DNA of 47,647 bases, from the sequence record MF158039, one strand, 5' to 3'. Under the pieces are notes generated by a model, which worked only from the letters and a program-made list of their open reading frames with translations, was not told the origin of the DNA and searched no databases. Position numbers and translations under genes: made by a program. The stretch is from Shigella phage Sf12. Positions 1 to 47,647 of this stretch are shown piece after piece. Numbering within the stretch: the first letter of the stretch is position 1; the number at the start of each line of letters is the position of its first letter.

Positions 1-257
1 ATATATATATATTAAGGACTTATGGCGTAAGTCATGGCGTAGCTTGGCGTACCTCGCGTAACGATGGCGGCTCAGCTTACATCGCGCTACTGAGGTTACG
101 TGTATATGAAGGAAAAGGCCATGGCGAGCGATAAAACCAACCAACTAGTTGATACACTCCCCTTCATTCCATCCATCCATCAACCATTGCTCAATTCGCA
201 ACAGTCCAGAAAATCATTGCAATCGATGCAATATTGCTATACATGCAATAGTACTGT
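1..257. repeat. Terminal direct repeat, left copy (identical to 47391..47647); true length may be longer because the window ends inside it
   Basis: Exact identity of window start and end read directly; repeat period 47,390 bp. Confidence 0.9.
24..70. repeat. Five GGCGTA-type direct repeats phased at about 10 bp inside the terminal repeat
   Basis: GGCGTA at 24, 36, 46, (G)CGTA at 56, GGCGG at 66; one helical turn apart. Confidence 0.7.
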
Positions 258-5204: not shown

Positions 5205-5250
5205 AATATACGCCATCTTTTGATTTCTGTTTTAGCAATTCGTGCTATTT
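5205..5250 (-). promoter_or_regulatory. Junction cassette copy: palindrome (5233..5247) and -10-like TATATT (complement of 5205..5210)
   Basis: ttagcaattcgtgctattt; stop codon of HNH gene lies in the palindrome. Confidence 0.55.
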
Positions 5251-5703
5251 ACCGTGTCTTTCTGTGAAGCAATGATTTGACTCATAGAAGCTGACTGCTA
5301 GCGCCTTTGCCTCATCAAAACTATCAAATGTTCTATGAATCCTGTGATTGTCCTTTTGCAATTGAACTGTGTATTTACCCTTAGCTTTATTGTAAGAAAC
5401 TCCTGTTTGTCCTGTTTTGTTATCTTTTCTCATCGCTGCGTTTTTGCAGTTTACCAGCCTATCTACACATCTTAAGTTTTCTATTCTGTTGTCGTGCTTT
5501 ATTCCATTCAGGTGATCTATCTCCATACCTTTAGTTATCTCACCATTGTGCATTTCCCATATAACTCGGTGGGCAAAAGTCATTTTGTGACCAACCTTTG
5601 TTCTTACGTAGCCCCTTCTGTCAATATACCCAGCCACTGAATTTGTTGTCTTCCTGATTAGATTGCCTTTGTCGTATATGTAGTGTTTATTCCAATCTTC
5701 CAC
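5245..5703 (-). CDS. HNH homing endonuclease (HNH plus AP2-like C-terminal domain)
   Basis: EIDHLNGIKHDNRIENLRCV motif; paralogous to four other copies in the window. Confidence 0.8.
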   Translation of the reverse strand: MEDWNKHYIYDKGNLIRKTTNSVAGYIDRRGYVRTKVGHKMTFAHRVIWEMHNGEITKGMEIDHLNGIKHDNRIENLRCVDRLVNCKNAAMRKDNKTGQTGVSYNKAKGKYTVQLQKDNHRIHRTFDSFDEAKALAVSFYESNHCFTERHGK

Positions 5704-8610: not shown

Positions 8611-8656
8611 ATAATACAACATCCTTGGTTTTCGTCTTTAGCAATTCGTGCTATTT
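8611..8656 (-). promoter_or_regulatory. Junction cassette copy: palindrome (8639..8653), -10-like TATTAT (complement of 8611..8616)
   Basis: tttagcaattcgtgctattt; palindrome encodes the C-terminal NSTNC and stop of the upstream gene. Confidence 0.55.
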
Positions 8657-9051
8657 GAAAGATAATCCTCAATTGCCAACTTAAACATTTCGAACCCATA
8701 GCAGATTGCCGCGTAACCTCCTGTTTCTGATACCTTTTCAAGAAACTCCTTTTGCTCATTTGAAACCTTGCTATCTGATTTTATTGCTCGCTTAAGCTCT
8801 ATTGCGGCAAAGCCATTAGGCCCAATCAGAAGGATATCTGACACGCCTTTGATAACCCCCTCTTGCTTATCCTTCATAGCAGTACCAATAGACTTCAACC
8901 CCTCATTCTTCACGTGCCATGCGAATATCTCTGGGTGATTATGGCGAACCCATGCGATTGAATTGGTTTGGTGAATGCACTCTTTACTTTTATCTTCTGA
9001 CTTCTTATCTAAGAATATTTTAACGCTCATTTTCTGCTCCGTGGTTTTCAT
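8638..9051 (-). CDS. VRR-NUC-like nuclease
   Basis: GVSDILLIGPNGFAAIELKR resembles the VRR-NUC G-x-P/S-D ... E-x-K core. Confidence 0.55.
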   Translation of the reverse strand: MKTTEQKMSVKIFLDKKSEDKSKECIHQTNSIAWVRHNHPEIFAWHVKNEGLKSIGTAMKDKQEGVIKGVSDILLIGPNGFAAIELKRAIKSDSKVSNEQKEFLEKVSETGGYAAICYGFEMFKLAIEDYLSNSTNC

Positions 9052-9550
9052 GGTACCCGATTTCTTTTTCTAAAGACTTCCTGGCTAACACTGCTGACTT
9101 CAAATCCACAAAGTAACCTATGTGCTTCTCCTTGCCGTTTATGTTTATGTAAGCTCTGAATTTCTGCTCTCTCTTGTTCCAGCTAACACCTGTAACCCCT
9201 GAAGTGTTGTCATTCCTTTTGCTTTGATTTTTTAAATTATCCTGCTTAGATACTAACCTTAGATTTTCAATCCTATTGTCATCTCTTATGTGGTTTATAT
9301 GGTCTATCTCCATTCCTTTAGGGATTTTGCCATTATAAATCTCCCATATTATCCTATGTGCAAGAAATGGTTTTTTATTTAAAATTATCTGAATGTATCC
9401 GATGTTTTTGGTTCCAGCCTCTTTGCCTGCATAGTTTCCATTCCATTGGGGCCTAACATCACCCCTCCATTTCCAAAACAACTTAAAATCATCACTTAAT
9501 GAAAAATAATCCAACCAATCAAAATTGCTTATTACTAATGACATCTTCAC
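9020..9550 (-). CDS. HNH homing endonuclease
   Basis: EIDHINHIRDDNRIENLRLV motif; overlaps both neighbours. Confidence 0.8.
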   Translation of the reverse strand: MKMSLVISNFDWLDYFSLSDDFKLFWKWRGDVRPQWNGNYAGKEAGTKNIGYIQIILNKKPFLAHRIIWEIYNGKIPKGMEIDHINHIRDDNRIENLRLVSKQDNLKNQSKRNDNTSGVTGVSWNKREQKFRAYININGKEKHIGYFVDLKSAVLARKSLEKEIGYHENHGAENER

Positions 9551-18736: not shown

Positions 18737-18783
18737 AAATAGCACGATTTGCTAAAGACTCCCGCATCAGCCTTTGCTATAGT
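18737..18783 (+). promoter_or_regulatory. Junction cassette copy: palindrome (18740..18754), -10-like TATAGT (18778..18783)
   Basis: aaatagcacgatttgctaaag; 23-bp gap; leader ccatcgaaacgaaac. Confidence 0.55.
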
Positions 18784-18823: not shown

Positions 18824-18928
18824 ATGACTAACTTCGCAACCAACGTAATGGCCTTCACCTTCGGCGTAGCAACTACTGGTTTCTTCGTGTGGGTACTGCT
18901 GCTGGCTTCAAAATTTAACGGTTTCTAA
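18824..18928 (+). CDS. Small hydrophobic membrane peptide, 34 aa
   Basis: MTNFATNVMAFTFGVATTGFFVWVLLLASKFNGF; tightly coupled to lipoprotein gene. Confidence 0.45.
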   Translation: MTNFATNVMAFTFGVATTGFFVWVLLLASKFNGF

Positions 18929-20761: not shown

Positions 20762-23700
20762 TTAGTAAACTCCAGTCAAACGGCCAATCTGAACACGAAG
20801 CCTTCCGTTAGCGTCAGCAACAGATATTGTCTCATTTGTTTGCTTCATTCTACCCTCTCCAGCCGTAGAGCCGTTATTTTCGAACGTTCCACCCTTGTCA
20901 AGTCTCCATCCGACAGAGCCAAATACGTAGTTGTTAGACTGAATTGCACCACCAATCTTCGCGTTAGTGATTGAACCGTCCTGAATAACCGCGCTTTGTA
21001 TGAATACCTGGTTATTCTCGACAACGAAAGGCAGCGACCACTGACCGGAACCAGAACTAATGCCGTTACTGATTGCAAACCTGTTAGCATCGAAAATGAA
21101 CTGACTACGAACATTTCCACCACTACCGGTTAACTCCATGCTCATGCCAGCACCGTACTCAACTCCATTGTACTTAAGGCCTAGCTTAACGCCGTACTGA
21201 ACACCAACGCCTTCAACTGTAGCGTAAGAGTCGAGCTTCTGATTCAAAGCCGCCTCGTTATCACCAAGCCTTGCGCTGAGAGCCGTATCAGCAGTAGCCC
21301 TCGCTTCCGTCTCGGTTGCTAGCGCTGTTTCGATAGTTGTAATCTGACCAACAATCTCATCATCAATTTGCGCCTTAAGCTGCGTAAGAGCCTCTACACG
21401 AGCCTCAGTTTCGTTGGCTATTAGATTAACAGCCTGACGATACTCAGCCTTCCTGGCTCCATTTTCACGCCTCATAACACGAACATCAGTATCGTTTGCC
21501 AATGCGTTCTCAATTATTGCCTCGGCCTGGTTCTGAATGTCAGCATTTGCATCTATCGCGTTCTGGAGTAGATACTTGTATCCATCTGAGTTTTCAATAT
21601 CAACCTTAATTTCTCCAATGATTGCACTCACGTCATCCGAAGCCATACCCCTGACAAAATCAGTCCATTGCGATACGTTACCAATCCTGTCGATCGTTCT
21701 TCCCCTATACCAGATCACCTTTCCTGCCGGGAGCGTCGTGTGCCAATACTCAAACTGAGGGTAAGGAACGAGAGTTAACAATGAGGCATTCTCAGGGGTG
21801 TATGTCCCATCGCCATTATCAGCAACTTGCTGCAATTCCACATAAGCAGTATCACCACTATTATTGCCAAAACCCCACTTAACACGGATGCCAAATACTT
21901 CATCATCTGAAGCCGTGATGACCTGCAATGGCTCAGGCTCACCAACCTTACCAGTCAAGCTAACTGTTGTAATTTCAGACCATGCCGATACTGATTTTTG
22001 GTCAGTTACAGCACGAACCCTGACGTCGTAAATGCCAGCGTAGATGCCTTCAATATCAACCTCAGTGTTAGCCGTCTCCGGTACATTAATCCAGTTTCCG
22101 TTATTCTTACGCCATTGCACGTTGTATGTTTTCGCATACTGCACCTTGTCGTAACCGATAACCATCGTCTCAACGCTCATGCCCTGAACTACTTTGCTGT
22201 AACTAGTAACCGTAATGTTCTTCGGTGGTAAAATCCTGTCAGGGTCAACTATGCTTGTTGGCCTGTCGTCGATGTTTACTCCGTAGTCAATCTCATCGTA
22301 CTTGTTAGGGTCATACTGAACAGCCGTGATGCTGTACTGGAATGAATCCTCTCCGTCCGTGTTGGCTTTTTGAATCCCGGTCACAACATATTGCTGTAAA
22401 GCAAGATTCTGCTTGTCGATTGCAAATACCGTATCTGGCTGCGGCGTGAAGCTGAATGCTGTATTCAGCTCAAGCGTCAACTTATCGGCAGATACTGAAG
22501 CGATAGTCCTGTACTCCGGGCTTCCATCTGGCTTGTTGATTAAGATTCTGTCGCCAGGGTCAGCATCAATAGCGAACGGAACAAAAACCTGCAAACCAGT
22601 AGCCTCCACGATTCGACCAGAAAGGTTTAACGTGTAATTGCTTGACCAAGCTTGGTCATTAACAGCAATGACATCACCAATCATAGGAATCATACCTTCG
22701 AGTCCGGTGGTGAATGTTATTGTTTCGCTACGCAAGTTCGTTTTAAGGAGCCAACGACCACGACGGTTAGCCTCGCTACGCCTTACGCATCCAATTGCAG
22801 TCAGGTCTACAGGGTTATACCCAAACCTGCGAGTTGCCTCAAGGTCAAACACTGGCTCTACGTCTTGCTGGTAGTTGTTCTCTACATCATCAAACTGAAC
22901 GTTGGCAGTCGTGTACAAACTCTTATCACTAGCAAACGTGCGGTTGAATAAACCATCGACTACGTTATCATTTGTGAATACGTAACTTGGTTGGCGCGGC
23001 CTGTCAACTACAATCCCAATTTGCTCACCATCATAGAAGGTTAATCCACGGAAAATGGAACAGATGTCACGAATAATCTGATACGCTTCCACTTTCTGCT
23101 GAATGACAACGTTACAAGTATATCGCGGCTCCATTCCACCCTTACCATCCGGGACCATCTGGTCGCAGAATTGCGCAGCTTCATACAGACCCCACTTATC
23201 AATCTCAACTCCAAGCTCTCGCTGGTCAAGCCCATACCTCTGACTGACTACCAGGTCATATAAAACCCACGCCGGGTTATCTGACCATGCCATCTTGAAA
23301 GTTCCATCCCAAGTTCCGCTATAAGTCCGCGTTGCTGGGGTGTAGTTTGTTGGGACTCTAATTATCTTCCACCTTTTCTTGATTGCGATAGGCGGCAACC
23401 CGTTAGGAAAAAGGTCTGAACTGAACTCTACATAAACAAGCGCTGTAAGTGGATAACGGAATTTGGCGTCAATTACTTCCTGATAGGTCGTAATCTGCAT
23501 TCCGTTTACCAGAGTGCTGCTTGTTGAGTCTGGCGTTAACTTCCTAATACGAACAAGAGCGCTGCTAAACTCGGCTGGTAAGTTAACCCTGATACTGCGG
23601 TCGTAACCTGTTGTAGTTTTACCGTTAGCCACGCCTCTGGTATATTCAGTGTACGCTGAGCCATTAACTGATAAATCGATTGCATATTCACATGTTGTGC

Positions 23701-24774: not shown

Positions 24775-25522
24775 CCTCCGGTAAATCTTTATGCCTTACG
24801 ATTCGCACTGTCCGCTCACGATAGTAGTCGCCGTACAAATCAACCTTACTCATCTTACCATATAAATGGTGTAGGATTTTATTATCACCAATATAGATGG
24901 CAGCGTGGTTTGTCTTCTCGCTTTGAATCTGCATCATAATCATCGATCCAATTGGGATGTTATTACCGCGAACTAACTCGAACCCCTCTAACTCCCAATT
25001 GTCATCGTAGATATTGTCAGGGTATTCGTTCGTCCACCACTGATAATCAACGCGGTAGTCATTTAGTTTAACGCCGTGTAGCTTGTGAAATTCCATAACC
25101 AAATTCCAACAGTCGAAGCTGCCAAGACCCCATGGGCGACCAGCAAGCGGCATTTTTTCTGGCTGAATAATCCGTAAGTCCCCTTCAGGTATAGAAACAA
25201 TAACATAAGGCAGCTCGCACTCATTGCAGCTGCAAATATCAGCTGCGCTTGGCCTAGTAGTAGCACCATCACCAGTATGTGAATGTACAACATAAACAAC
25301 GTTTTCATTATCTGAAATCTCCATGAATTCTGATGGGTCAAGAATGAATGATTGCTCTGGTGTTTTGGATACGTTGGTAATCCTGTGATACTTCTGAGCC
25401 ATTCCCTTTTGAGTCACAACCCCGCAAGATTCTTGCGGGTAAACCTCGTTGGCATGTCGAAATATTTCGATTTTTACTTTAGGTGTTAGCATTTTATCTC
25501 CCATGATTCTCATGAAAACCAT
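24746..25522 (-). CDS. Tail tip protein (lambda gpK-like: JAMM/MPN plus NlpC/P60 domains)
   Basis: HSHT JAMM-like motif, Cys/His peptidase signature; position. Confidence 0.7.
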   Translation of the reverse strand: MVFMRIMGDKMLTPKVKIEIFRHANEVYPQESCGVVTQKGMAQKYHRITNVSKTPEQSFILDPSEFMEISDNENVVYVVHSHTGDGATTRPSAADICSCNECELPYVIVSIPEGDLRIIQPEKMPLAGRPWGLGSFDCWNLVMEFHKLHGVKLNDYRVDYQWWTNEYPDNIYDDNWELEGFELVRGNNIPIGSMIMMQIQSEKTNHAAIYIGDNKILHHLYGKMSKVDLYGDYYRERTVRIVRHKDLPEDAGYDPERD

Positions 25523-25971
25523 TTAACCTTCTGAATTCATCTACAGCAATTGATGCTGATTCAAATGATTCATGACTTCCTAAGCTGTATTTCTTCCCAT
25601 TGAAGACAACGCTTGCCCTGTAGTTATTTCTGTCCTTTCTAAATGTGACCCCACTTTCACCGGTTGTATTTCTCTTATTCATTTTCATGTTTTTTTTGAT
25701 TTTCAGAGTGACTAACAATCCTTAAATTTTCTACCCTATTGTCGGACCTCGAACCGTTTATGTGATCTATCTCCATACCTTCTGGTATATCACCGTTGTG
25801 CATTTCCCAAACAATCCTATGCACGTAATGATAACTTCCTTTAGCACCAACCCTCAAGTATCCTCCGCTACGCAAAGAACCCGCTAAAGATCCTATTACT
25901 ATATTTCTGTTTGTCTTCTTATTCCAGTAAAGCTTGCCATCTCTGTATTCAAAAATTTCATTCCAGTTCAT
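25494..25971 (-). pseudogene. HNH homing endonuclease split into two ORFs by a frameshift at a T8 homopolymer (25690..25697)
   Basis: ORF 25675..25971 carries the HNH motif EIDHINGSRSDNRVENLRIV; ORF 25494..25718 carries the C-terminal domain. Confidence 0.6.
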
Positions 25972-25992: not shown

Positions 25993-26040
25993 ATTATAGG
26001 ATAGCGCATTTCTGCGCTACCCAATTAACAAAAAGTGCTT
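25993..26040 (-). promoter_or_regulatory. Variant junction cassette upstream of the HNH gene: palindrome-like (26026..26040), hairpin, consensus -10 TATAAT
   Basis: ttaacaaaaagtgctt; tagcgcatttctgcgcta hairpin; TATAAT complement of 25993..25998. Confidence 0.4.
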
Positions 26041-26806
26041 AAGTCTGTTGGTTGGCTTTAGCTTGCAGGCTTGCGGCTGCACAACCGCCAAAGTCTAATT
26101 GATTGTTAGCTCCAAACCTTAACTTACAGGCGGTCACGGTTCCAGCACAGAAGTCTTGTGATGGGTCAGTCACAGGCGCGTTGTCCTTATCGAAATATCG
26201 AGTACCCATGTAGTTACATCCATTGCCTGAGCGGTAAAGCCCTCGCTGAGCCCAATAACAAACTGACTGAACAAGGCGCGCCGGAATGTAGATACCATCC
26301 ATATCCATCGGGCTGGTTAGTTCAAATGAGGCCGTATTGTAATCAACCTGCTTAGGTCGCTCAATGAAGTAAACCAGCTTGCGGTAATCGCCATCAGCAA
26401 TGGTGCCATCTTCGTTAATATTCTCCCGAAGGGTGATCCAGATAGTAACCTTGGCCTGAACAAGGCCATTGTAGGTGCGGATAAGCGCAGAAATGTTCTG
26501 GTCAACATTAGAGACAACTAGCGTTACTTTGTTTGCCTTGCCATCAGAAGTCATATTAATACCCTGAATACCGAATGGCCTTGCGCCGTACTCTTCACCA
26601 CGGAAAGTAATTGTCTTCGCTGAAATAGGTTGCCCCGTAGACTGAGCAATCATAATTTCTTCTGGTGTGTAGCTGATGTTCTCTCCATGGAAGCGATACA
26701 CCCTCCCGCCAAACTTAGTGCCATCAACCTCGATTAGCGTAACAATCTCGCCAGGGAACAGGCTTTGTAATTGATTCTCAAACTTAGTGCTTAATGGCGT
26801 AGCCAT
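26039..26806 (-). CDS. Minor tail protein (lambda gpL-like)
   Basis: C-terminal Cys cluster C..C..C..C; position between M and K. Confidence 0.7.
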   Translation of the reverse strand: MATPLSTKFENQLQSLFPGEIVTLIEVDGTKFGGRVYRFHGENISYTPEEIMIAQSTGQPISAKTITFRGEEYGARPFGIQGINMTSDGKANKVTLVVSNVDQNISALIRTYNGLVQAKVTIWITLRENINEDGTIADGDYRKLVYFIERPKQVDYNTASFELTSPMDMDGIYIPARLVQSVCYWAQRGLYRSGNGCNYMGTRYFDKDNAPVTDPSQDFCAGTVTACKLRFGANNQLDFGGCAAASLQAKANQQT

Positions 26807-26820
26807 AATATTTCTCCAAT

Positions 26821-26842
26821 AAAAAAGACCCCGTAGGGTCTT
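26821..26842 (-). terminator. Rho-independent terminator after the moron gene
   Basis: gaccctacggggtc then tttttt on minus strand. Confidence 0.6.
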
Positions 26843-26860
26843 AGTTTATCTCAATTTACA

Positions 26861-27055
26861 TCAATCTTCACTAGTAATAACCTTTGATGCATTTTTTGAG
26901 TAGTGAGAAATCTCATCAAAAGACAATTCAACCCACTCATCCAAGCCAATCTCATAGTAAAGAGGTTTATCTCCAGAGTTATCAATTGTTACAGAGAATG
27001 GCTTTCCATTGTGGAAGTGAACCAGTACGAATTGTGATTTAGGGAAGTTTTTCAT
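26861..27055 (-). CDS. Moron: hypothetical 64-aa protein inserted between tail genes M and L
   Basis: Own junction-cassette promoter upstream and own terminator downstream. Confidence 0.5.
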   Translation of the reverse strand: MKNFPKSQFVLVHFHNGKPFSVTIDNSGDKPLYYEIGLDEWVELSFDEISHYSKNASKVITSED

Positions 27056-27103
27056 TTCATTATCCTCGTTTGTTTGTTTTGGTCATTTCGTTTCGATGAA
27101 GTG

Positions 27104-27150
27104 ATAATACACCACTTCACCGATTCGTCTTTAGCAATTCGTGCTATTTA
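27104..27150 (-). promoter_or_regulatory. Junction cassette copy driving the moron: palindrome (27132..27146), -10-like TATTAT (complement of 27104..27109)
   Basis: tttagcaattcgtgctattta; 22-bp gap; leader catcgaaacgaaatgaccaaaacaaacaaacgaggataATG. Confidence 0.55.
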
Positions 27151-27498
27151 CTGCATCGAGGTAAAAACTTCTACAAACTGCATTGATACAGTCTGCACTT
27201 CCCTAGTGTTTGGTGTGACACTGATGCTGTCTTGAGCCACAACAAACAACCTCAGCTCACCCTGCGGAGTTGTCCAGGCGAACGGGGTGATGATATGCGC
27301 AAAACAGAAGTCTAACACTTCCTTCCAGTTGGTGTTGGTGTAGGTCATGTTGTAAGTGCGCTTATTGGTTCTGTAACCTCCAGTACCAATTTGGGTGTAG
27401 CCATTACCGAATGAGACGCTTCTTACATTGCTTGCGTTGGTAAATGAGCCGCCGCCATTTTGAACCTGTGTACAAAAAGTAAAAGTATCTAATGCCAT
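27148..27498 (-). CDS. Minor tail protein (lambda gpM-like)
   Basis: Size, position between tape measure and L, N-terminal similarity as recalled. Confidence 0.6.
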   Translation of the reverse strand: MALDTFTFCTQVQNGGGSFTNASNVRSVSFGNGYTQIGTGGYRTNKRTYNMTYTNTNWKEVLDFCFAHIITPFAWTTPQGELRLFVVAQDSISVTPNTREVQTVSMQFVEVFTSMQ

Positions 27499-27529: not shown

Positions 27530-30271
27530 TTAACTGTAACCGCGCAAGAACTGGTAAGCAGTCCCGCCCTGCTGGAAGGACTGAGTAATCTCTTCCGCGA
27601 TGATAACCCTGATACCAGATTCTAACTGTTTAGCGTCATTACCGCCACCGCCGCCAAGACCTGTCTGAACGGTAACATTCACTCCACCAACGTTAACGTT
27701 GCTTCCACCAACAAGTCCACCAGTCGCATAACCAGGACCAGAACCAACCACTCCGCCGTTGGCGTATCCGCGCATCAACTTGTACAGGTTGTCTACACCA
27801 ATCCTTGACGTTGCCTCCTTCGTAAAGACAAATTCACCACGATGCACTGTACCAGCTGGCTCGTACTTACCACCGTTTCCAGTGTAACCACCTGAAGCGA
27901 AACCAAATGCGCTACCAATGGAGCCAATAGCACCACCGCTACCGCCAAAACTAGAGATGGTTGACTCAATCGCCTTAATCAAAAGTAGCTGCGTTGCAAT
28001 GCGTGCAATCTGCTTCAAAATCGACGCTGTAAACTCGCGGAAGTTAGCCTCTCCAGTTGTTACCAAGTTTGTAATCTGATCAGTCAAGCCATTAAAGGCA
28101 CTCGTTGCCAATTCAGCTCCAATCTGATTGAAATTTGCCAATTCATCAGCTGTCTCGGCGAATGCTGACCTAACGCCAGCCAGCCAGTTACCACGTAATG
28201 CATCTTCCTGATTGTAGAAATTCTGACGAGCCTGAAGTAGCGCCTGAAAGTCAGTATCGTCTACTGAGCCACCTCGATTAACTTGCTGCGCTGTTAATGC
28301 TGCAATTTCACGCTGCCTCTCCTGCTCCCTTCTTGAAAGTCCAGCTCCAAGTGAAAGCGCTTCAGTCTGGGCGTTAATCTGATTGGTCTTCCTGATGTTT
28401 TCATCAAGTAATTTGTTTGCAGCTTCCTGCTGCTGAATCTGGTCACCTAGAATCGCAGACTTCTCACGCTCTGCAAGAATGATATCTCTCTTGGCGAACA
28501 ATTCACGCTGCGCTGCATTTGCAGTGCCTGCGTTAATTCTTTCCTCGATAACTGCAAACCTCGCCTGTTCATCAATTAGCTGCTTGCGCTGCTGACTGAG
28601 AGTTCTTCCTACCAGTTCCTGATCTTTAAGTACCCTGAGTTGAGCCTCCAGTGCTATCACTCCAGCTTCCGCGTCCTGGGTTAAGTCTCTTTGTTGTCTT
28701 GGCTGCCTTTCTGTGGTCCTCCTCCCATTTCTTGGTTTGTTTGCTTCGGCTAGTTCCTCCTTCCTGATTTCAACAATCCTATTGGCTTGTCTAATTGCCT
28801 CGGCATTACCGCTCAGCCTAATCTTGTTTAGCTGGCTTTCCGCTTGCTGTAATGCTCTAGTCGCACCAGCAACTCTATCAGTAGCGAAGTACTCCTTGTC
28901 GATTGCTGCTACAGTCTCAGCTCTTTCCCTCGCACCTTCACGAAGTGCGTTGTTTAGATCCGTTGCTGTTATCGCTATATCATCAATTGATCGCTGAACC
29001 CTTGCGTTGTTACTGACCTGTGAGTTACCAAGCTGCTGTAAAACTCTAGTTAGAAAACCAACCTCTGTTGCTGCCTGCTTGTAGCTATCAGCAATCCCTG
29101 CGACTTGAGCTTTGTGTTCTGCAATCTTTGCGTTAACTGCGGTGAAGTTTGAAGCATCCTTATACTGATCAACAAGCTCCCTCGCCTCTTCATAGCTCAA
29201 ACCAACATCAATAAGAGCAAGTTCAGCTTCTAAAGCGCCATCTGTAGTTGATACGAATGCTTGTGCAATTGACTCAGCAGACTTGCCTGTCTCCTCCGCG
29301 AGATCAGCGACCAGCTGACCAAGCCTTGATGCGGAATCACCAGTCAGGCCAAGTGATTTCTGAACTGCTGCCGTTCCTTCTTCCAGCCTCTTTTGTGAGT
29401 TGAATATTGATACGCCTAGCGTAGTAAATGCAATTGCAAGAACACCAAGAGAAGCCGTTACAGGGTTAATGTAACTAAGTAAGAACCTAAATGTGTTAGC
29501 GACACCTCCGAAGCTATCCTTAATCTGACCACCCTGCTGTATTGCAATAAGCCAAAGTGGTATGCCGCCAGCGATTGATGTCCCGATGTCTGTAATCTGC
29601 GCCGGAAGTTGTGCAATGGCATTTTTATATTGACCAGCGCTTAACCCTGATTTCCTGAACGCCTCGGCTTGACGACCTAGCGCTTCTACGTTAGCGTTCG
29701 TCCTTTGAGAAATTGATTGAATCAATGGTGCCGCCTGATCTGAAACACCAAGCTGGGCCGCTCTAAGTTCAAGAAGTTCTGTAGTTGTCCTTCCAGCTGC
29801 TAGCTCTTGCTGCCTGAGCGACTCAATGAACCTTTGACCAGCAGAGGCAAGCTTTTCTTTCTCTCTTGAGGCAGCTAGTGAAGCCCTACCTTCCTCAGTC
29901 AATGCGGCAGCACTTCTACGCAGTCTATTTTCCTGAGTCTCAAGAACCTCCCCAAGCCTGAAGAACTGCTCATCAGGAACTACACCAGCGGCAAACGCCT
30001 TATCTAAACCCTCCGCAGCTACACGCAACTTCTGTAGTTTTGAAGCCGTTGGGTCAATCGTCTGACTAAGCCTCTGAAAGGCTATCTGCTGTTCCTGCGT
30101 TGCCCTTGCGGTATCTCTGGCTATTGTCCTGGCAACTTGCTCAGCGTTAACAAACTTATCAACACCAGATGCCGCCTGTTCATTGGCACGTTTAAATTCT
30201 TGCAGGGACTTTGTGCCCTGTTCAACTTGGCGAACGTCAACGCCAAGTGTGATACCTGCAAATTCTGCCAT
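27530..30271 (-). CDS. Tail tape measure protein (start refined to Met 30271)
   Basis: About 910 aa, Ala/Gln-rich coiled-coil, Gly-rich C-terminus; follows G/T chaperones. Confidence 0.8.
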   Translation of the reverse strand: MAEFAGITLGVDVRQVEQGTKSLQEFKRANEQAASGVDKFVNAEQVARTIARDTARATQEQQIAFQRLSQTIDPTASKLQKLRVAAEGLDKAFAAGVVPDEQFFRLGEVLETQENRLRRSAAALTEEGRASLAASREKEKLASAGQRFIESLRQQELAAGRTTTELLELRAAQLGVSDQAAPLIQSISQRTNANVEALGRQAEAFRKSGLSAGQYKNAIAQLPAQITDIGTSIAGGIPLWLIAIQQGGQIKDSFGGVANTFRFLLSYINPVTASLGVLAIAFTTLGVSIFNSQKRLEEGTAAVQKSLGLTGDSASRLGQLVADLAEETGKSAESIAQAFVSTTDGALEAELALIDVGLSYEEARELVDQYKDASNFTAVNAKIAEHKAQVAGIADSYKQAATEVGFLTRVLQQLGNSQVSNNARVQRSIDDIAITATDLNNALREGARERAETVAAIDKEYFATDRVAGATRALQQAESQLNKIRLSGNAEAIRQANRIVEIRKEELAEANKPRNGRRTTERQPRQQRDLTQDAEAGVIALEAQLRVLKDQELVGRTLSQQRKQLIDEQARFAVIEERINAGTANAAQRELFAKRDIILAEREKSAILGDQIQQQEAANKLLDENIRKTNQINAQTEALSLGAGLSRREQERQREIAALTAQQVNRGGSVDDTDFQALLQARQNFYNQEDALRGNWLAGVRSAFAETADELANFNQIGAELATSAFNGLTDQITNLVTTGEANFREFTASILKQIARIATQLLLIKAIESTISSFGGSGGAIGSIGSAFGFASGGYTGNGGKYEPAGTVHRGEFVFTKEATSRIGVDNLYKLMRGYANGGVVGSGPGYATGGLVGGSNVNVGGVNVTVQTGLGGGGGNDAKQLESGIRVIIAEEITQSFQQGGTAYQFLRGYS

Positions 30272-30305
30272 GTAACCTCCATAAAAAAACCTCCACAAAG
30301 GGAGG

Positions 30306-34620: not shown

Positions 34621-34680
34621 TTATACACGAGATTTTGATTGGAACAATAGGCGATTCCTTTCGCCTTTAACTTTAATCCA

Positions 34681-36156
34681 CTATGCGAGAGGTTCGCTTA
34701 AGTTTTCCACCTTATAAGCGTAAACGCCAGCCAAGGCATCGGATGAGTTCCTTATGCCAACTATTGTAAGCTTGAAGCATTTAGAGTCAGCTGTAGCTCC
34801 TGGTGATGTGGTTACGTAGTGCTCAGATGTGACTCCAAAAACTCCTGGCTTGAACACGCTATTCCAAAGAGCAGTCCCAGGAGGCATGCTTGTTACTATC
34901 GCTGTGTAGTTTTTCAACTTATCAGCTGCAACTGTAGTGAGTGAGTCAATCTGGTATGCAGTGTGCCTTATTGAAGCGATGTTTGATGTACCGGTATTAC
35001 TAACACCAACCCACAGCCCCTTAGCGGCAACTGTCGCATTCTTCTCTCCGGTAAGAGCGAACCTTATTGTTGTCTCTCCAGGTATATCTATAAAGTCAGT
35101 ATCCGTCTGATTGATCAACCCTGACCTTACGCCTGAAGCTACGTTATAAGAGGCTGGACCAGCCACCCCCTGTAAGCCCTGAGGTCCCGTAGGGCCCTGC
35201 AATCCACGCTCACCCTGCGGGCCTGCCGGGCCTTGTGGTCCAACTGCACCAGCTACACCTTGTAAGCCTTGCGGGCCAGCTGGGCCTTGCTCACCTTGCA
35301 GGCCCCTCTCGCCTTGTGGGCCTTGAATACCTGCCGGACCTGTCGGGCCAGTTGGGCCTGCTGGACCAGCGGAACCCTGTGGGCCTGGAGCACCCTGTGC
35401 GGCCAGTAACTCCCAGGAATCGCTAACATCTGGATTTTCTCCGGTCACGGCGGCGGTAGCAAACCAGCTTGAGTTATTGAATGTAACAACGTCATCTTTA
35501 ACGTAAGCTGTCGCTGCGTCGTACATCCCGCGGAATGTTAAGCCTGCCGGACCAACTGGGCCCGCATCACCTTTATCACCTTTAGGGCCAGCAGGACCTG
35601 CTGCGCCAGTTGCACCGATAGGGCCTTGCGGACCAGCCTCGCCAGTTTCACCTTGAGGACCTTGCGGGCCTACGGGGCCAGCTGGACCAGTTTCGCCTTT
35701 AGCACCTGCCGCGCCTGCCGGGCCGGTAGCACCTGTTGGGCCTTGAGGACCCTGTGGACCAATAGCTCCTGCCGGGCCCGCTGGACCCTGTGGACCAACC
35801 GGACCTTGTGGGCCTGCTTCACCTGAGCCTCCTTCTTCATCACTTACAAAATCACCTTTCGCCAGCGCTGAAAGATAAGCACCATCTTCGAAGTGGGCAT
35901 TGCCAAACCTGCGCCAGCCCTGGGCTAGATATCTGTTAACCCTGTTAACTAATCCCTGAATTGTGGTATCGGATGTCACCATGAAGTCTTCAACGTTGTT
36001 TGCTGTTCCCTTCGCCATCTTCATGCCAAAGAGGGTGCCGCTCAGCATCTGCACGTCGCCATATGGCTGGAATCCTGATGAAATCATCATTTTTACGTTT
36101 CTGGCTAAGATTTCAGGTGAATTCCCTACTGCCATAGCAATTTCTGTGTAAGCCAT
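34681..36156 (-). CDS. Collagen-like triple-helix repeat protein (fiber-like structural protein)
   Basis: Two long Gly-X-Y tracts, e.g. [34 protein letters not shown]. Confidence 0.8.
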
Positions 36157-36210
36157 CTCTATCTCCTGATTGGTTAATAATCATTGACAGTCTAACAGAA
36201 AACCAGCAAT

Positions 36211-36232
36211 AAAAAACCTCCCAAAGGAGGTT
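36211..36232 (-). terminator. Rho-independent terminator
   Basis: aacctcctttgggaggtt then tttttt on minus strand. Confidence 0.6.
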
Positions 36233-36237
36233 TGATA

Positions 36238-37530
36238 TTAAACGCGAGAAACTGAAAGGATTTCCACTTGGGCGCCAGTTTGTAAGTATAGCTGGCCAGC
36301 AACGTCATTCTCATCAATAGCATTTACTACGCCAGAGAAGATTCTGACACCAAAACCTTTAGTCAGCCTTGCCACTACGTTAAATCCACGAGGCTTAACT
36401 GGAACCATTAGTGATTTCTGACCTGTAGCCGCCAGAAAAACCTCGCGAGCCATAGCCATACCCCTGAACTCATGACCCAGAGCGCCAGGGTGAACCCTAT
36501 CAGTTCCGGTGTATATTTCAGAGTTTGCTGCCGTTACATAGTTGCTAATGTTGATTACTGGTATCCCGTTATCAGCACAGAAGCCATCAACCAACTCAAC
36601 AACCCTCTGAGTTGTGGCATTCAATCCAATTGGTGTTGCGCAGCTAATCTGGATGATTGGTACATCACTGTAAGTCTTCCTGGTCTCCTCCAGGCACTCC
36701 GACATAGACCTAAGCAGCCACTCAGCCTTGCCAGGGTCATTTATTGAAACTGAGTCATTATAACCAAGCGCCCACGAGATAACGTCAGGTTTTCTATTTA
36801 ACGCTGCGAGCCTTGTCTTTACCCTGTTAATCGGGAACCTGCCCTCCTCTTTTGAAGTCCAGGCCGATCCACCAATCCCTTCGCAGATACCATCGAATCC
36901 AAGCGCTCGACTAAAAGTATAGAAGTCGTTTACTGCAGGGGATGAGCCATAAGACTGAGTCCTAAATCCCGCACCAGTACCAGCTGTGTAGCTATCACCC
37001 ATCTGGTAAATGAATGGCCTTTTAATAGTAATATCCCTGCTAATCGTGTCTAACGGACCGAATGCGAAAGAGCCAAATGCAGTGTTAACGCCATAAATCT
37101 CAATATGCCTTAACTTTCCGCTAACGACTCCATCATTGGCCTTCACTTGAATCCAGCTAACACCCTCAGTGGTTGGTGTCGTGATAGCATCTAGGGTTAC
37201 CAATTTACCGTCAACGAATATTGAGTAAGATGAAAGAGAGCCAATGGTCTTAATTTCAAAAAGCCTTGAATCAGTCATAAACTCAAGTTTCATCTGAAGG
37301 CCATTCGAAGGCTTCTGACCAGTGTAAGACCCGCCTGAAACGTTATCAAATCCGTAGGTTGTCCACATGAGATTGGTCTCATTAAGTCTATTGATAACTT
37401 GAGGGGTGGTAATTGATGTTGCGGCCCTGATTTCCTTGATTGCGGAAAACTCAGTCGATAGCTGAACTGGCTGCATAGTAGCCAAGCCGTTTTCAATATT
37501 TCTTTTTACCAAATCAATAAAGCTTGCCAT
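36238..37530 (-). CDS. SGNH/GDSL-family esterase with about 170-aa N-terminal non-catalytic domain
   Basis: Block I GDSYTAG, block III GYND, block V DRVH. Confidence 0.7.
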   Translation of the reverse strand: MASFIDLVKRNIENGLATMQPVQLSTEFSAIKEIRAATSITTPQVINRLNETNLMWTTYGFDNVSGGSYTGQKPSNGLQMKLEFMTDSRLFEIKTIGSLSSYSIFVDGKLVTLDAITTPTTEGVSWIQVKANDGVVSGKLRHIEIYGVNTAFGSFAFGPLDTISRDITIKRPFIYQMGDSYTAGTGAGFRTQSYGSSPAVNDFYTFSRALGFDGICEGIGGSAWTSKEEGRFPINRVKTRLAALNRKPDVISWALGYNDSVSINDPGKAEWLLRSMSECLEETRKTYSDVPIIQISCATPIGLNATTQRVVELVDGFCADNGIPVINISNYVTAANSEIYTGTDRVHPGALGHEFRGMAMAREVFLAATGQKSLMVPVKPRGFNVVARLTKGFGVRIFSGVVNAIDENDVAGQLYLQTGAQVEILSVSRV

Positions 37531-37580
37531 TTTCTTTCCTCCAATTTTAAGTGAAACTAATTGTACCAGTTTACAGGCAT

Positions 37581-37603
37581 AAAAAAACCTCCCGAAGGAG
37601 GTT
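37581..37603 (-). terminator. Rho-independent terminator
   Basis: aacctccttcgggaggtt then ttttttt on minus strand. Confidence 0.6.
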
Positions 37604-37612
37604 TGATCTGAA

Positions 37613-38137
37613 TTATTCCATTAACTCATAAGTAACAATGGCTCGTCCTGATGTTTTTTTGTTCACTTCAGCAGCTACACCTGCCACGACGATAATCCTG
37701 TGTGCATATGCTTCTGGATCTATAGTCCAGTTGTAATATCCATTATATGGACCACTAAAAACGTATACCGCATCATCATCAAAGTCATTAGCAAGCTTTG
37801 GCTTAGACAGCGGTGTTAGACCCATAGATTCACACATCTCATAACCAATCATCTCATGATCTACAGTTGGTTGCTTTCCCATACCAAGATCAATAACAAT
37901 CAATTTAATGCTTGAAAATTTAACCCCAGAACTAACAGTCTCAGAGTAAGGTAATGATGTGGCACTTGATTTTTTATACGTCTCCTTTGAGGTTGCGCTT
38001 AAGTTGAATCCCTTGTATGAAGCGACCTCTAGGTATGGGAATGATCCGATAAATGAAACCTCTTTCTCGCTGAAATTATCTGCAATTGCAGCAGATAGTT
38101 CATCTAAAGTAATCAAGTCTAAGTTTAGCTTCTTCAT
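37613..38137 (-). CDS. Hypothetical structural-module protein (ORF 37613..38200, start refined to Met 38137)
   Basis: ORF track; upstream extension would cover a terminator hairpin. Confidence 0.4.
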   Translation of the reverse strand: MKKLNLDLITLDELSAAIADNFSEKEVSFIGSFPYLEVASYKGFNLSATSKETYKKSSATSLPYSETVSSGVKFSSIKLIVIDLGMGKQPTVDHEMIGYEMCESMGLTPLSKPKLANDFDDDAVYVFSGPYNGYYNWTIDPEAYAHRIIVVAGVAAEVNKKTSGRAIVTYELME

Positions 38138-38174
38138 ATAAACCCCTATTAAAAAGGCCCCGAAGGGCCATTTA

Positions 38175-38648
38175 TTATTTCTGAATAACCTGAACTTCAA
38201 CGAGCGCTGGGTCAGTTAATGCATCAGCTCCAGCTGCCTGGAAGCCACCTGCGAATGTCCAGTTAGTAGTGATTGCACCACCGCTTGTTGCGGAGCCATC
38301 AGTACCAATGGTAACCGCGCTGCCAAATGCCGGAGCGGCAGAAAGACCGGTAACCATCCAGATGCGACCGTGAGTCATTACGTTAGCGACCTGGAAGTTA
38401 TCAATATTACCAACAACGCCACCGTAAGAGCCGCGCGGGCTTTCGTAGTGTGACTTCACCAGAACGCCATATACGTTATCAGCAACAGCGGAAACCAGAA
38501 CTTTGTGACCATCAGCATCAACAGAACCGACACCAACAGCATAACCGACACCCTGAACTACTCCGGTAGACATTATACATGCACCATCAATATTGTACAG
38601 AGAGGTATCTGCAACCATACCAGCAGTAGCTTGACGACGAATTGCCAT
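38175..38648 (-). CDS. Gly/Ala/Val-rich structural protein (possible decoration or minor head protein)
   Basis: Composition and position after scaffold-like gene. Confidence 0.4.
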   Translation of the reverse strand: MAIRRQATAGMVADTSLYNIDGACIMSTGVVQGVGYAVGVGSVDADGHKVLVSAVADNVYGVLVKSHYESPRGSYGGVVGNIDNFQVANVMTHGRIWMVTGLSAAPAFGSAVTIGTDGSATSGGAITTNWTFAGGFQAAGADALTDPALVEVQVIQK

Positions 38649-43467: not shown

Positions 43468-43543
43468 TGGTGTTCCGCGCTGGACTCGAACCAGCAACTG
43501 AGACTTAGGAGGTCTCTGCGTTATCCTGTTACGCCAGCAGAAC
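43468..43543 (-). tRNA. tRNA-Arg (anticodon CCU, decodes AGG)
   Basis: Hand-folded cloverleaf: acceptor GTTCTGC/GCGGAAC, D stem GCGT/ACGC with GG in loop, anticodon stem GAGAC/GTCTC loop CTCCTAA, T arm GCTGG-TTCGAGT-CCAGC, encoded CCA. Confidence 0.85.
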
Positions 43544-44303: not shown

Positions 44304-44350
44304 ATCATATCAACTACCCATTCTGGCGTATTAGCAATTAGTGCTATTTG
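44304..44350 (-). promoter_or_regulatory. Junction cassette copy: palindrome (44332..44346), -10-like TATGAT (complement of 44304..44309); no long ORF downstream
   Basis: attagcaattagtgctatttg; leader catcaagacgaaacgaggagaagaaATG precedes only a 22-codon ORF. Confidence 0.5.
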
Positions 44351-44820
44351 CCGTGATTATCATGAAATACGTATTTTAAGTTCGCTTCCTGCCTTGCCTT
44401 AATTGCCTCATTCATGTCGGAATAAGTTCCCAGGTGAATATCCTTTCCGGAGACTTTAATCTTTGCGGCCCACTTACCTGAAGCTTTGTGCCAGCCTACT
44501 CCAATGAAACCACTTAAGCTAGATGGTCTTATTGATTGGTTCCTCTGATTTCCTGCGTTTGTAACAAGCCTTAGGTTTTCAATCCTGTTATCTTTCCTAT
44601 TATGGTTTATGTGATCAATCATCATACCTTCGGGCTTTTCCCTACCATGCATGAACCAAACTATATTGTGCACAAGTGCGGTTCCGTCTATGAAATGTCA
44701 CTGCAGATAACCTTTAGAATCAGGACTTCCAGTAACTCGTCCATTTGACAATCTGGTTATCGTTCCATCTTTATTATAGCTAAAGTGGCATTTTATATAC
44801 TCTTTATTTCTCACTACCAT
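44344..44820 (-). pseudogene. HNH homing endonuclease interrupted by an in-frame TGA (complement of 44698..44700)
   Basis: Hand translation MVVRNKEY...SKGYLQ*HFIDGTALVHNIVWFMHG...IDHINHNRKDNRIENLRLV aligns across the stop with intact paralogs. Confidence 0.6.
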
Positions 44821-46019: not shown

Positions 46020-46066
46020 ATCATAGCTGACTACCCGATTTATTGTTTAGCAATTCGTGCTATTTA
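46020..46066 (-). promoter_or_regulatory. Junction cassette copy: palindrome (46048..46062), -10-like TATGAT (complement of 46020..46025)
   Basis: ttgtttagcaattcgtgctattta; 22-bp gap. Confidence 0.55.
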
Positions 46067-47390: not shown

Positions 47391-47647
47391 ATATATATAT
47401 ATTAAGGACTTATGGCGTAAGTCATGGCGTAGCTTGGCGTACCTCGCGTAACGATGGCGGCTCAGCTTACATCGCGCTACTGAGGTTACGTGTATATGAA
47501 GGAAAAGGCCATGGCGAGCGATAAAACCAACCAACTAGTTGATACACTCCCCTTCATTCCATCCATCCATCAACCATTGCTCAATTCGCAACAGTCCAGA
47601 AAATCATTGCAATCGATGCAATATTGCTATACATGCAATAGTACTGT
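47391..47647. repeat. Terminal direct repeat, right copy (identical to 1..257)
   Basis: Exact identity read directly. Confidence 0.9.

What the first reader, a model, noticed from the sequence alone, without database searches (positions are those of the whole stretch)
26821..27150. Self-contained moron (promoter-ORF-terminator) inserted between tail genes M and L
A 64-aa ORF (26861..27055) carries its own junction-cassette promoter (27104..27150) and its own terminator (26821..26842), interrupting an otherwise lambda-like M-L-K-I-J block. Morons in this position often encode host-interaction or exclusion functions.
Basis: partly seen in the sequence, partly recalled or inferred. Interest (0 to 1): 0.6.

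Follow-up and report, generated by a model that had tools for sequence, protein, structure and literature searches.

The report
Small accessory gene cassette between tail genes
A real 64-codon gene of unknown function, preceded by one copy of this T1-like phage's repeated regulatory cassette, sits between two tail genes that are adjacent in most relatives; it is an ordinary but clean example of how such phages pick up and swap small extra genes.

Summary
The window is Shigella phage Sf12, a virulent T1-like phage (Drexlerviridae, close to Rogunavirus). A 64-aa ORF (26861-27055, minus strand) lies between the gpM-like and gpL-like tail genes. One of about 12 genome copies of a conserved cassette precedes it, and a strong hairpin plus T-run follows it.

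The ORF is a real gene. dN/dS is 0.16-0.31, its length is conserved exactly, and the AlphaFold model is confident. It is accessory: 45 of 48 related loci have no gene at this spot. The closest relatives of the flanks are either empty (AKS96, AHP42) or carry an unrelated 71-aa ORF at exactly the same point (C119, Rogue1, phiKP26).

- The terminator is not the insert's own. It is the resident M-L terminator, present at empty sites and across the family. The mobile unit is therefore cassette plus ORF, 302 nt, at 35% GC against 44% for the genome.
- An HNH gene also interrupts the tail block, between L and K.

The cassette is the known Drexlerviridae 21-nt repeat, a -10 hexamer at fixed spacing and a stem-loop around it. 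It resembles the PeSL cassettes of T4-type phages. Homology breakpoints between Sf12 and AHP24 fall on cassette edges.

Protein function is unknown. The sequence gives no support for an envelope or exclusion role.

The parts
27148..27498 (-). gpM-like minor tail gene (116 aa). Its TAA stop (27150-27148) abuts the repeat ATAGCAC and supplies the first A's of AAATAGCAC.
   Evidence: PF05939, E = 6e-17; phrog_14; sequence.
27129..27149 (-). 21-nt Drexlerviridae direct repeat, AAATAGCACGAATTGCTAAAG. It forms the left end of the insert.
   Evidence: 12 copies against 0.08 expected. It matches the TLS consensus aaATAGCACnnnTTGnTAAAA (PMC11447400).
27093..27123 (-). Stem-loop enclosing the -10 hexamer (TCGGTGAAGTGGTG / TATCACTTCATCGA).
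   Evidence: -18.9 kcal/mol, z = -5.2. The same kind of stem-loop is seen in 29 of 43 cassette copies in Sf12, AHP24 and T1.
27104..27109 (-). -10-like hexamer TATTAT, at the fixed offset of +40 from the start of the repeat.
   Evidence: Offset of 40/41 in nearly all copies.
27088..27098 (-). Conserved CATCGAAACGA. The predicted transcription start is the A at 27097, 7 nt after the -10 (inferred).
   Evidence: Conserved across copies. The start position is an inference only.
27063..27067 (-). Shine-Dalgarno sequence GAGGA, 7 nt before the ATG.
   Evidence: Sequence.
26861..27055 (-). 64-aa ORF (Sf12_gp45): acidic (pI 5.2), soluble, with a beta-beta-beta-beta-alpha-beta predicted fold. Function unknown.
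   Evidence: phrog_24631, E = 3e-43.
26846..27147 (-). Extent of the insert relative to the empty sites (302 nt, with 4 nt of TAAA ambiguity at each junction). GC is 35.1%.
   Evidence: Junction alignment; GC content.
26817..26842 (-). Resident M-L intrinsic terminator (AAGACCCTACGGGGTCTT + TTTTATT). It is present at empty sites as well.
   Evidence: annotated as a terminator in the AHP24, AHP42 and AKS96 records.
26039..26806 (-). gpL-like minor tail gene (255 aa).
   Evidence: PF05100, E = 7e-47.

Best explanation
What it is. A 302-nt accessory unit sits exactly between the stop codon of the gpM-like tail gene and the intrinsic terminator that is resident at the M-L junction. The unit is one copy of the phage's repeated regulatory cassette plus a 64-codon ORFan. 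The cassette consists of a 21-nt direct repeat, a stem-loop, a -10 hexamer, a conserved leader and a Shine-Dalgarno sequence.

Shown:
- The ORF is a real, selected gene.
- The site is empty in most relatives.
- An unrelated ORF with the same cassette start occupies the identical point in other Rogunaviruses.
- The terminator predates the insert.
- This is the only canonical cassette copy inside the roughly 25-kb structural block.

Inferred:
- The gene is transcribed in two ways. One is read-through from the tail operon, because no terminator now separates it from M. The other is its own cassette promoter, the type that otherwise precedes small non-structural genes. Both transcripts would end at the borrowed terminator.
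- The unit arrived, and is exchanged or lost, by recombination at the cassette on the left and the terminator on the right. This is the way PeSL cassettes shuffle ORFans in T4-type phages.
- The product is a dispensable, cytoplasmic, non-virion protein. It most likely binds a host or competitor protein (host takeover or counter-defence). That last step is a guess.
For: Coding:
- dN/dS is 0.31, 0.21 and 0.16 among the three homologs. The 64-codon length is kept at 71% nucleotide identity.
- AF2 mean pLDDT is 86.9 from a 3-sequence alignment.
- The protein matches phrog_24631.

Accessory status:
- Across all searches the protein turned up only in Sf12, AHS24/AHP24 and one Logan contig. It was always at the M-L junction.
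- Of 48 loci, 45 have no cassette or ORF there.
- Nothing similar was found in 5,426 E. coli genomes or in the plasmid collection.

Exact junctions:
- The empty site reads cagTAA|ACTAAGACCC...
- Both insert types start at ATAGCAC and end just before ACTAAG.
- They are flanked by TAAA (Sf12 type) or AGTAAA (C119 type).

Insert state does not track the flanks:
- The M genes of Sf12 and AKS96 are 93% identical, yet AKS96 is empty.
- AHP42 (empty) and C119 (71-aa ORF) are 94% identical.
- Contig L008 switches from Sf12-like to AHP24-like inside the ORF.

Cassette:
- 12 copies against 0.08 expected.
- The -10 sits at a fixed offset. Stem-loops give a mean z of -2.35 over 43 copies, with covarying arms in T1.
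- Five of 32 Sf12/AHP24 homology boundaries lie within 10 nt of a cassette edge, against 0.36 expected.

Composition and virion content:
- The insert is 35% GC against 44% for the genome.
- SDS-PAGE patterns of virions with and without the ORF were identical (PMC4070988).

PeSL architecture and role: PMC2839356.
Against: Promoter:
- No transcription-start or expression data exist for any of these phages.
- The generic sigma-70 scan did not call the cassette. TTGCTA lies 22 nt from the -10, and the sequence at the -35 position is weak.
- The authors who described the repeat left its role open: stoperator, enhancer site or UP-like element.

Direction and age of the event:
- Insertion versus deletion is inferred by parsimony only.
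- The ORF's dS (0.93) equals that of its flanks (0.82-1.02). The insert is therefore old, not a recent arrival.

Breakpoints: BLAST boundaries tend to fall at conserved intergenic islands in any case.

Virion content: a 7-kDa protein would not be seen on the 12% gel used.

Function: nothing here bears on it.
Confidence: 0.78

Rival explanations
1. The ORF is a conserved tail structural or assembly component that belongs to the M-L-K-I-J module.
For: Its position inside the tail operon, and co-transcription with M by read-through (sequence).
Against: It is absent from 45 of 48 related junctions, including the nearest relatives AKS96 and AHP42. An unrelated ORF replaces it in C119 and Rogue1. 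Virion protein patterns were identical with and without it.
Confidence: 0.04
2. The selected feature is the regulatory cassette itself. It would supply extra transcription, or an attenuating hairpin, for the tail-tip genes L-K-I-J. The ORF would be a passenger or spurious.
For: The M-L copy has one of the strongest cassette hairpins (-18.9 kcal/mol, against -4.9 for its closest paralog at 8654). In other subfamilies the M-L gap holds a terminator followed by a -10-like promoter.
Against: The ORF shows purifying selection and an exactly conserved length. A confident fold is predicted. The cassette lies upstream of the resident terminator, so it does not bypass it. No junction was found with the cassette alone.
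Confidence: 0.1
3. It is a classical moron that provides superinfection exclusion or host-surface modification, as the first reader suggested (like HK97 gp15 or T1 Cor).
For: Its position among tail genes, where such genes are found in temperate siphophages (general knowledge, not tested here). Its AT-rich composition.
Against: The longest hydrophobic run is 6 residues, with no signal peptide or lipobox (sequence). The phage is virulent. A separate small membrane protein plus lipoprotein pair lies downstream of the tail genes, behind the 18739 cassette. No homology to any exclusion protein was found.
Confidence: 0.06
4. It is a remnant or partner of a homing-endonuclease insertion. Freestanding HNH genes occupy neighbouring junctions in this family.
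For: HNH genes sit at TMP-M (phiEB49, IME253), after the M-L terminator (L025) and at L-K (Sf12, AHP42, L008).
Against: The ORF has no similarity to HNH or to any nuclease. It is intact and under selection. No endonuclease is adjacent at the M-L junction.
Confidence: 0.03

Closest known systems
PeSL (promoter-early stem-loop) cassettes of T4-type phages (Arbiol et al. 2010, PMC2839356; Comeau et al. 2014, PMC4122927)
   Same: Both are repeated intergenic units with the same layout: the upstream gene's stop codon in an AT-rich stretch, a promoter, a stem-loop that often overlaps the -10, a Shine-Dalgarno sequence and a start codon. Both sit mostly in front of small ORFans. A few copies lie inside virion modules next to genes of unknown function. 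Both mark indel and replacement boundaries between close relatives.
   Different: The phage family is different and so is the sequence. Here a conserved 21-nt repeat replaces a consensus -35, and TTGCTA lies 22 nt from the -10. Promoter activity, terminator activity and mini-circle formation were shown for PeSLs. None of these has been tested here.
Morons of lambdoid phages (the Hendrix/Juhala concept; e.g. HK97 gp15 among tail genes). Recalled from general knowledge.
   Same: An extra gene lies between two genes that are adjacent in relatives. It is bracketed by a promoter-like element and a terminator, and its composition is deviant (AT-rich).
   Different: The phage is virulent, so there is no prophage expression. 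The terminator is resident rather than imported. The promoter is the phage's own repeated cassette. The protein is soluble, with no membrane features.
The 21-nt direct repeats of TLS, T1, Rtp and Rogue1 (Kropinski et al. 2024, PMC11447400)
   Same: The left end of the insert is a copy of this repeat. [quoted passage not shown]
   Different: That paper leaves the function open. It does not describe the fixed -10, the stem-loop, or the association with indel boundaries seen here.
Freestanding HNH homing endonuclease insertions at tail-gene junctions in Drexlerviridae
   Same: They use the same class of intergenic insertion points and show a similarly patchy distribution.
   Different: The ORF has no nuclease domain and is much smaller. 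It always comes with a cassette.

Membership tests
Moron (lambdoid sense) | Present between two genes that are adjacent in related phages | tested here: met
   Exact empty sites in AHP42 and AKS96. Of 48 loci, 45 have no gene there.
Moron (lambdoid sense) | Carries its own promoter | tested here: inconclusive
   A conserved cassette with a -10 at fixed spacing is part of the insert. The sigma-70 scan does not call it, and no activity data exist.
Moron (lambdoid sense) | Carries its own terminator | tested here: not met
   The same terminator is present at empty sites and family-wide. It lies outside the insert.
Moron (lambdoid sense) | Expressed from the repressed prophage, to the benefit of the lysogen | not testable with these tools
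   Relatives are reported as lytic and without integration genes (PMC4070988). No expression data.
Moron (lambdoid sense) | Nucleotide composition different from the neighbours | tested here: met
   35% GC, against 45-48% in the flanks. This is the 3.5th percentile of 195-nt windows.
PeSL-type regulatory cassette (works-like comparison) | Repeated intergenic motif combining a sigma-70-type promoter with a stem-loop | tested here: met
   12 copies against 0.08 expected. TAnnnT sits at a fixed offset. Stem-loops give a mean z of -2.35, and 29 of 43 enclose the -10. The -35 is weak.
PeSL-type regulatory cassette (works-like comparison) | Marks indel and replacement boundaries between close relatives | tested here: met
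   Five of 32 Sf12/AHP24 homology boundaries lie within 10 nt of cassette edges, against 0.36 expected. Two different cargos sit behind the same cassette start at the M-L junction.
PeSL-type regulatory cassette (works-like comparison) | Demonstrated promoter and terminator activity; mini-circle formation | not testable with these tools
   This needs reporters and PCR on infected cells.
Drexlerviridae 21-nt direct repeat (aaATAGCACnnnTTGnTAAAA) | Match to the consensus, oriented with transcription, tens of nt upstream of a start codon | tested here: met
   AAATAGCACGAATTGCTAAAG at 27149-27129, 94 nt before the ATG.
phrog_24631 | Full-length profile match | tested here: met
   E = 2.8e-43 over residues 1-64 of 64. 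The family has no annotated function.
Lambda-like tail tip block (gpM, gpL, gpK, gpI, gpJ) | Flanking genes belong to the gpM and gpL families | tested here: met
   PF05939 and PF05100. K, I and J match PHROGs, and in L008 also Pfam.

The most novel reading that the evidence does not exclude
The repeat / stem-loop / -10 units of Drexlerviridae may be functional counterparts of the T4-type PeSLs. That is, they would be portable gene boundaries that close the upstream ORF, attenuate read-through, restart transcription, and serve as recombination points. On this reading they have delivered at least two unrelated ORFans to one exact spot inside the tail operon. The 64-aa protein would then be a previously unrecognised host-takeover or counter-defence factor, and the -10 hexamer would be presented in the loop of a covarying hairpin.
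Probability: 0.4. Interest if true: 0.55.

Novelty: new member of a known kind. Interest (0 to 1): 0.36.

Why it matters
The case shows base by base how a virulent T1-like phage acquires an extra gene inside a conserved tail operon. The gene arrives attached to a copy of the phage's own regulatory cassette and is slotted in front of a terminator that was already there. Closely related phages carry nothing, this gene, or a different gene at the same nucleotide.

That gives a natural set of near-isogenic comparisons (Sf12 vs AKS96; C119 vs AHP42) for asking what such ORFans do. It also suggests a role for the unexplained 21-nt repeat of T1-like phages, parallel to the PeSLs of T4-like phages. 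The gene itself remains of unknown function, so the immediate biological payoff is modest.

Tried and rejected
Function of the 64-aa protein (nothing informative):
- Pfam, NCBIfam and PDB sequence searches gave nothing.
- A HMMER profile search against 1.84 billion representatives found only the family itself, plus repeat-protein noise.
- Foldseek against PDB had a best E of 0.4.
- Foldseek against BFVD found only small uncharacterised phage proteins.
- The afdb50 library was unavailable.

Origin of the insert:
- No paralog of the ORF or of the C119 71-aa ORF exists in Sf12.
- The two cargo proteins are unrelated in sequence.
- The AF2 model of the 71-aa ORF was too poor to compare (pLDDT 55).
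- No matches were found in E. coli genomes or plasmids.

Other checks:
- Rfam found only the tRNA.
- Literature searches for transcription-start data on Drexlerviridae, and for a link between PeSLs and T1-like phages, found nothing. A free-text search for ATAGCAC was uninformative.
- I considered sigma-54 (the TGGCAC-N5-TTGC look of TAGCACGAATTGCT) and a T4 MotA-box reading of the repeat. I dropped both because the spacings do not fit; this rests on the sequence and general knowledge.
- I did not attempt a fixed-column covariation test of the stem-loop. The register of the stem differs between copies, so per-copy z-scores were used instead.

Full report
**Identity of the window.**
- The 64-aa product is 100% identical to 'hypothetical protein Sf12_gp45 [Shigella phage Sf12]', on a contig of 47,647 nt.
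- DNA matches are to Rogunavirus and other Drexlerviridae at 77-90% identity.
- Bases 1-257 repeat at 47391-47647, so the genome is about 47.39 kb.
- The tail genes are on the minus strand: TMP 27530-30298, gpM-like 27148-27498, the ORF 26861-27055, gpL-like 26039-26806, an HNH gene, then K, I and J.

**Checking the observation.**
- The cassette is far from chance. ATAGCACNNNTTGNTAA (one mismatch allowed) occurs 12 times, against 0.08 expected. The 63-nt unit is a 9-copy repeat family.
- The terminator is a 7-bp stem followed by a T-run. It folds at -13.9 kcal/mol, z = -3.35.

**Is the ORF a gene?**
- Homologs exist only in AHS24/AHP24 (64% aa identity) and in one Logan contig (67%). All are at the same M-L position.
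- All three are exactly 64 codons long despite 71% nucleotide identity. dN/dS is 0.31, 0.21 and 0.16.
- AlphaFold2 gives a confident model (pLDDT 86.9) with strand-strand-strand-strand-helix-strand order.
- The protein is acidic (pI 5.2), contains no Cys and has no hydrophobic segment.
- I conclude it is a real, selected, soluble protein.

**Is it an insert?**
- Junction alignment shows that AHP42 and AKS96 read cagTAA|ACTAAGACCCTACGGGGTCTTTTTTATTGGAGAAATATT|atg. That is the M stop, the terminator, the L ribosome-binding site and the L start.
- Sf12, AHP24 and L008 carry 302-308 extra bases exactly between TAA and ACTAAG.
- C119, phiKP26, Rogue1, UDF157lw and BECP10 carry a different 71-aa ORF at the identical point. 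Their insert also begins ATAGCACTAATTGCTAAA.
- The two proteins are unrelated.
- The inserts are flanked by TAAA (Sf12 type) or AGTAAA (C119 type).
- Among 48 Drexlerviridae loci from IMG/VR, only Sf12, AHS24 and phiKP26 have cassette + ORF. The others have 30-103 nt gaps, apart from three longer gaps and two alignment artefacts: one has an HNH gene after the terminator, and two are M-gene alignment artefacts.
- By parsimony the empty state is ancestral for the family.

**The terminator is resident.**
- Every short M-L gap I inspected holds a hairpin plus T-run directly after M. The arm sequences covary: GACCC/GGGTC, GGCCC/GGGCC, GCCCC/GGGGC, and unrelated stems in other subfamilies.
- The T1 record annotates this terminator at 22793-22816. 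The AHP42 and AKS96 records annotate it at their empty sites.
- The ORF therefore uses a terminator that was already there. M has lost its immediate terminator and should now read through into the ORF.

**Insert state versus the flanks.**
- The M gene of Sf12 is 93% identical to that of AKS96, which is empty, but only 82% identical to that of AHP24, which has the same ORF.
- AHP42 (empty) and C119 (71-aa ORF) are 94% identical in both M and L.
- Contig L008 has Sf12's cassette and first 12 codons, then AHP24's ORF body and L gene. A crossover has occurred inside the ORF.
- The ORF's dS between Sf12 and AHP24 (0.93) equals that of M and L (0.82, 1.02). The ORF is a long-standing resident that is exchanged and lost by recombination. 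It is not a recent arrival.
- Nothing similar occurs in 5,426 complete E. coli genomes or in the plasmid collection.

**The cassette: structure.**
- All copies share this layout: AAATAGCAC-nnn-TTGnTAAA, then a TAnnnT hexamer 40-41 nt from the start of the repeat, then (C)ATCGAAACGA, a Shine-Dalgarno sequence and a start codon 73-94 nt from the repeat.
- The 21-nt repeat was described in TLS, with 21 copies about 76 nt upstream of start codons. It was noted there in T1, Rtp and Rogue1, and its function was left open: stoperator, enhancer site or UP-like element (PMC11447400).
- TTGCTA lies 22-23 nt from the hexamer, which is too far for a -35. The generic scan does not call a promoter here.
- Promoter function is therefore an inference. 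It rests on three things: the conserved -10, the pyrimidine-purine step 7 nt downstream of it, and the position in front of genes.

**The cassette: the stem-loop.**
- A stem-loop encloses or abuts the -10 in 29 of 43 copies across Sf12, AHP24 and T1.
- Mean folding z is -2.35, and 22 copies have z below -2.
- The arms in T1 clearly covary: GGGGTA/TACCCC, AAGGCCA/TGGCCTT, AGGGGAA/TTCCCCT, GGGAGTA/TACTCCC.
- The M-L copy has one of the strongest stems (-18.9 kcal/mol, z = -5.2). Its closest paralog, at 8654, shares the same repeat and the same 23 nt after the -10 but folds weakly (-4.9 kcal/mol).

**The cassette: distribution.**
- In Sf12 and in AHP24 the M-L copy is the only canonical copy inside the structural block. 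All other copies precede non-structural genes, mostly small ORFs.

**Comparison with known systems.**
- The architecture and distribution closely parallel the PeSLs of T4-type phages. PeSLs run stop codon in AT-rich DNA, promoter, stem-loop often overlapping the -10, Shine-Dalgarno sequence, ATG. They lie mostly before ORFans, with a few inside virion modules next to unknown genes. They mediate indels and replacements (PMC2839356; PMC4122927).
- I tested the last property. Five of 32 boundaries of Sf12/AHP24 homology lie within 10 nt of a cassette edge (offsets 0, 0, 2, -3 and 5). The expectation is 0.36, and none of 20,000 permutations reached 5.
- A caveat applies: conserved intergenic islands attract BLAST boundaries in any case.
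- The unit also fits the descriptive 'moron' pattern and is AT-rich (35% against 44% GC). It fails two moron criteria: the terminator is not its own, and prophage expression is not applicable.
- No paper in the searchable library links PeSLs with T1-like phages.

**Function.**
- No family, sequence or fold match is informative.
- The best structural neighbours in BFVD are 60-75-aa uncharacterised proteins of unrelated phages.
- Virions of AHP24/AHS24 (with the ORF) and AHP42/AKS96 (without it) gave identical SDS-PAGE patterns (PMC4070988). This is weak evidence, given the 7-kDa size of the protein.
- My best guess is a dispensable cytoplasmic protein acting on a host or competitor target. An envelope-level exclusion role is unlikely from the sequence.

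**Verdict.** This is a clean, well-bounded example of a known phenomenon: an ORFan cassette at a recombination hot spot. The new details are the borrowed terminator and the PeSL-like nature of the Drexlerviridae repeat. Interest is modest.

Noticed in passing
window 298, 975, 1402, 18739 (+); 5248, 7238, 8654, 11542, 15609, 18383, 27147, 44347, 45030, 46063 (-); also L057 (AHP24) and L058 (T1): The family-wide 21-nt repeat is followed by a -10 hexamer at a fixed +40/41. In most copies a stem-loop of variable register encloses the -10 or ends at CATCGA. The arms covary strongly in T1. This puts the -10 in a hairpin loop, which is PeSL-like, or possibly a supercoil-sensitive promoter.
   Followed up: partly
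window 5250, 7176, 8592, 15611, 360 (cassette edges): Homology between Sf12 and AHP24 starts or stops within 0-5 nt of cassette edges at five places (expected 0.36). The cassette is conserved while the cargo next to it is replaced.
   Followed up: partly
window 27130-27150, 5245-5250, 8638-8656, 46060-46065: The repeat offers stop codons in different frames: TAG in ATAGCAC, TAA in GCTAAA, and often a TAA just before it. Upstream ORFs do end in them (M, the HNH gene at 5245, the ORF ending at 8638, the ORF ending at 46060). The repeat may act as a portable gene boundary.
   Followed up: partly
window 25494-25971 (-): The HNH endonuclease gene between L and K is split over two frames (98 aa + 74 aa), against an intact 161-aa homolog in L008. 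This is either a frameshifted pseudogene or a sequencing error. AHP24 has no gene at this junction; AHP42 and L008 have an intact one.
   Followed up: partly
window 5245-5703, 9020-9550, 25494-25971, 44344-44673 (-): There are four paralogous HNH homing-endonuclease genes (repeat family D5). The one at 44344-44673 looks N-terminally short.
   Followed up: no
L004 1293-1508 (C119), L005 1379-1510 (Rogue1): The alternative 71-aa cargo at the M-L site is annotated 'tailspike sialidase' in C119, phiKP26, UDF157lw and BECP10. It has no Pfam or NCBIfam support, so this is probably a propagated misannotation. In Rogue1 the ORF is frameshifted and only 43 aa are annotated.
   Followed up: partly
L008 2909-3248 (Logan SRR28154160 contig): This contig is a recombinant. 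Its cassette and first 12 codons are nearly identical to Sf12, while the rest of the ORF and the L gene are AHP24-like. The crossover lies inside the 64-aa ORF.
   Followed up: partly
L014, L019, L026, L030, L037, L044 (M-L gaps): In other Drexlerviridae subfamilies the M-L gap holds a terminator followed by a -10-like element (e.g. TCTATAAT, TGTTACAAT, TGATACAAT) before L. The Rogunavirus-type gap has the terminator only.
   Followed up: no
window 34681-36156 (-): A 491-aa protein among the head genes contains long collagen-like Gly-X-Y runs, which are the source of the 9-nt periodic repeats D1 and D2. This region has no BLAST match to AHP24 (Sf12 34636-38577).
   Followed up: partly
window 1-257 and 47391-47647: A 257-nt sequence is repeated identically at both ends of the window. 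It is either an assembly overlap of a circularly permuted genome or a terminal redundancy.
   Followed up: no
window 27058-27084 (-): An 8-codon mini-ORF (ATGACCAAAACAAACAAACGAGGATAA) lies in the leader. It ends inside the Shine-Dalgarno region of the 64-aa ORF. It is shared with L008 but not with AHP24, and has no Shine-Dalgarno sequence of its own.
   Followed up: no
window 18824-18928 (+) and following: The plus-strand cassette at 18739 drives a 34-aa single-TM peptide. It is followed by an ORF that starts MKKLIVIAAMMLGGC, which is lipoprotein-like. This pair is a better candidate for an exclusion function than the M-L ORF.
   Followed up: no
window 43468-43543 (-): A single tRNA-Arg (anticodon CCT), as in the AHP24-group phages.
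   Followed up: no
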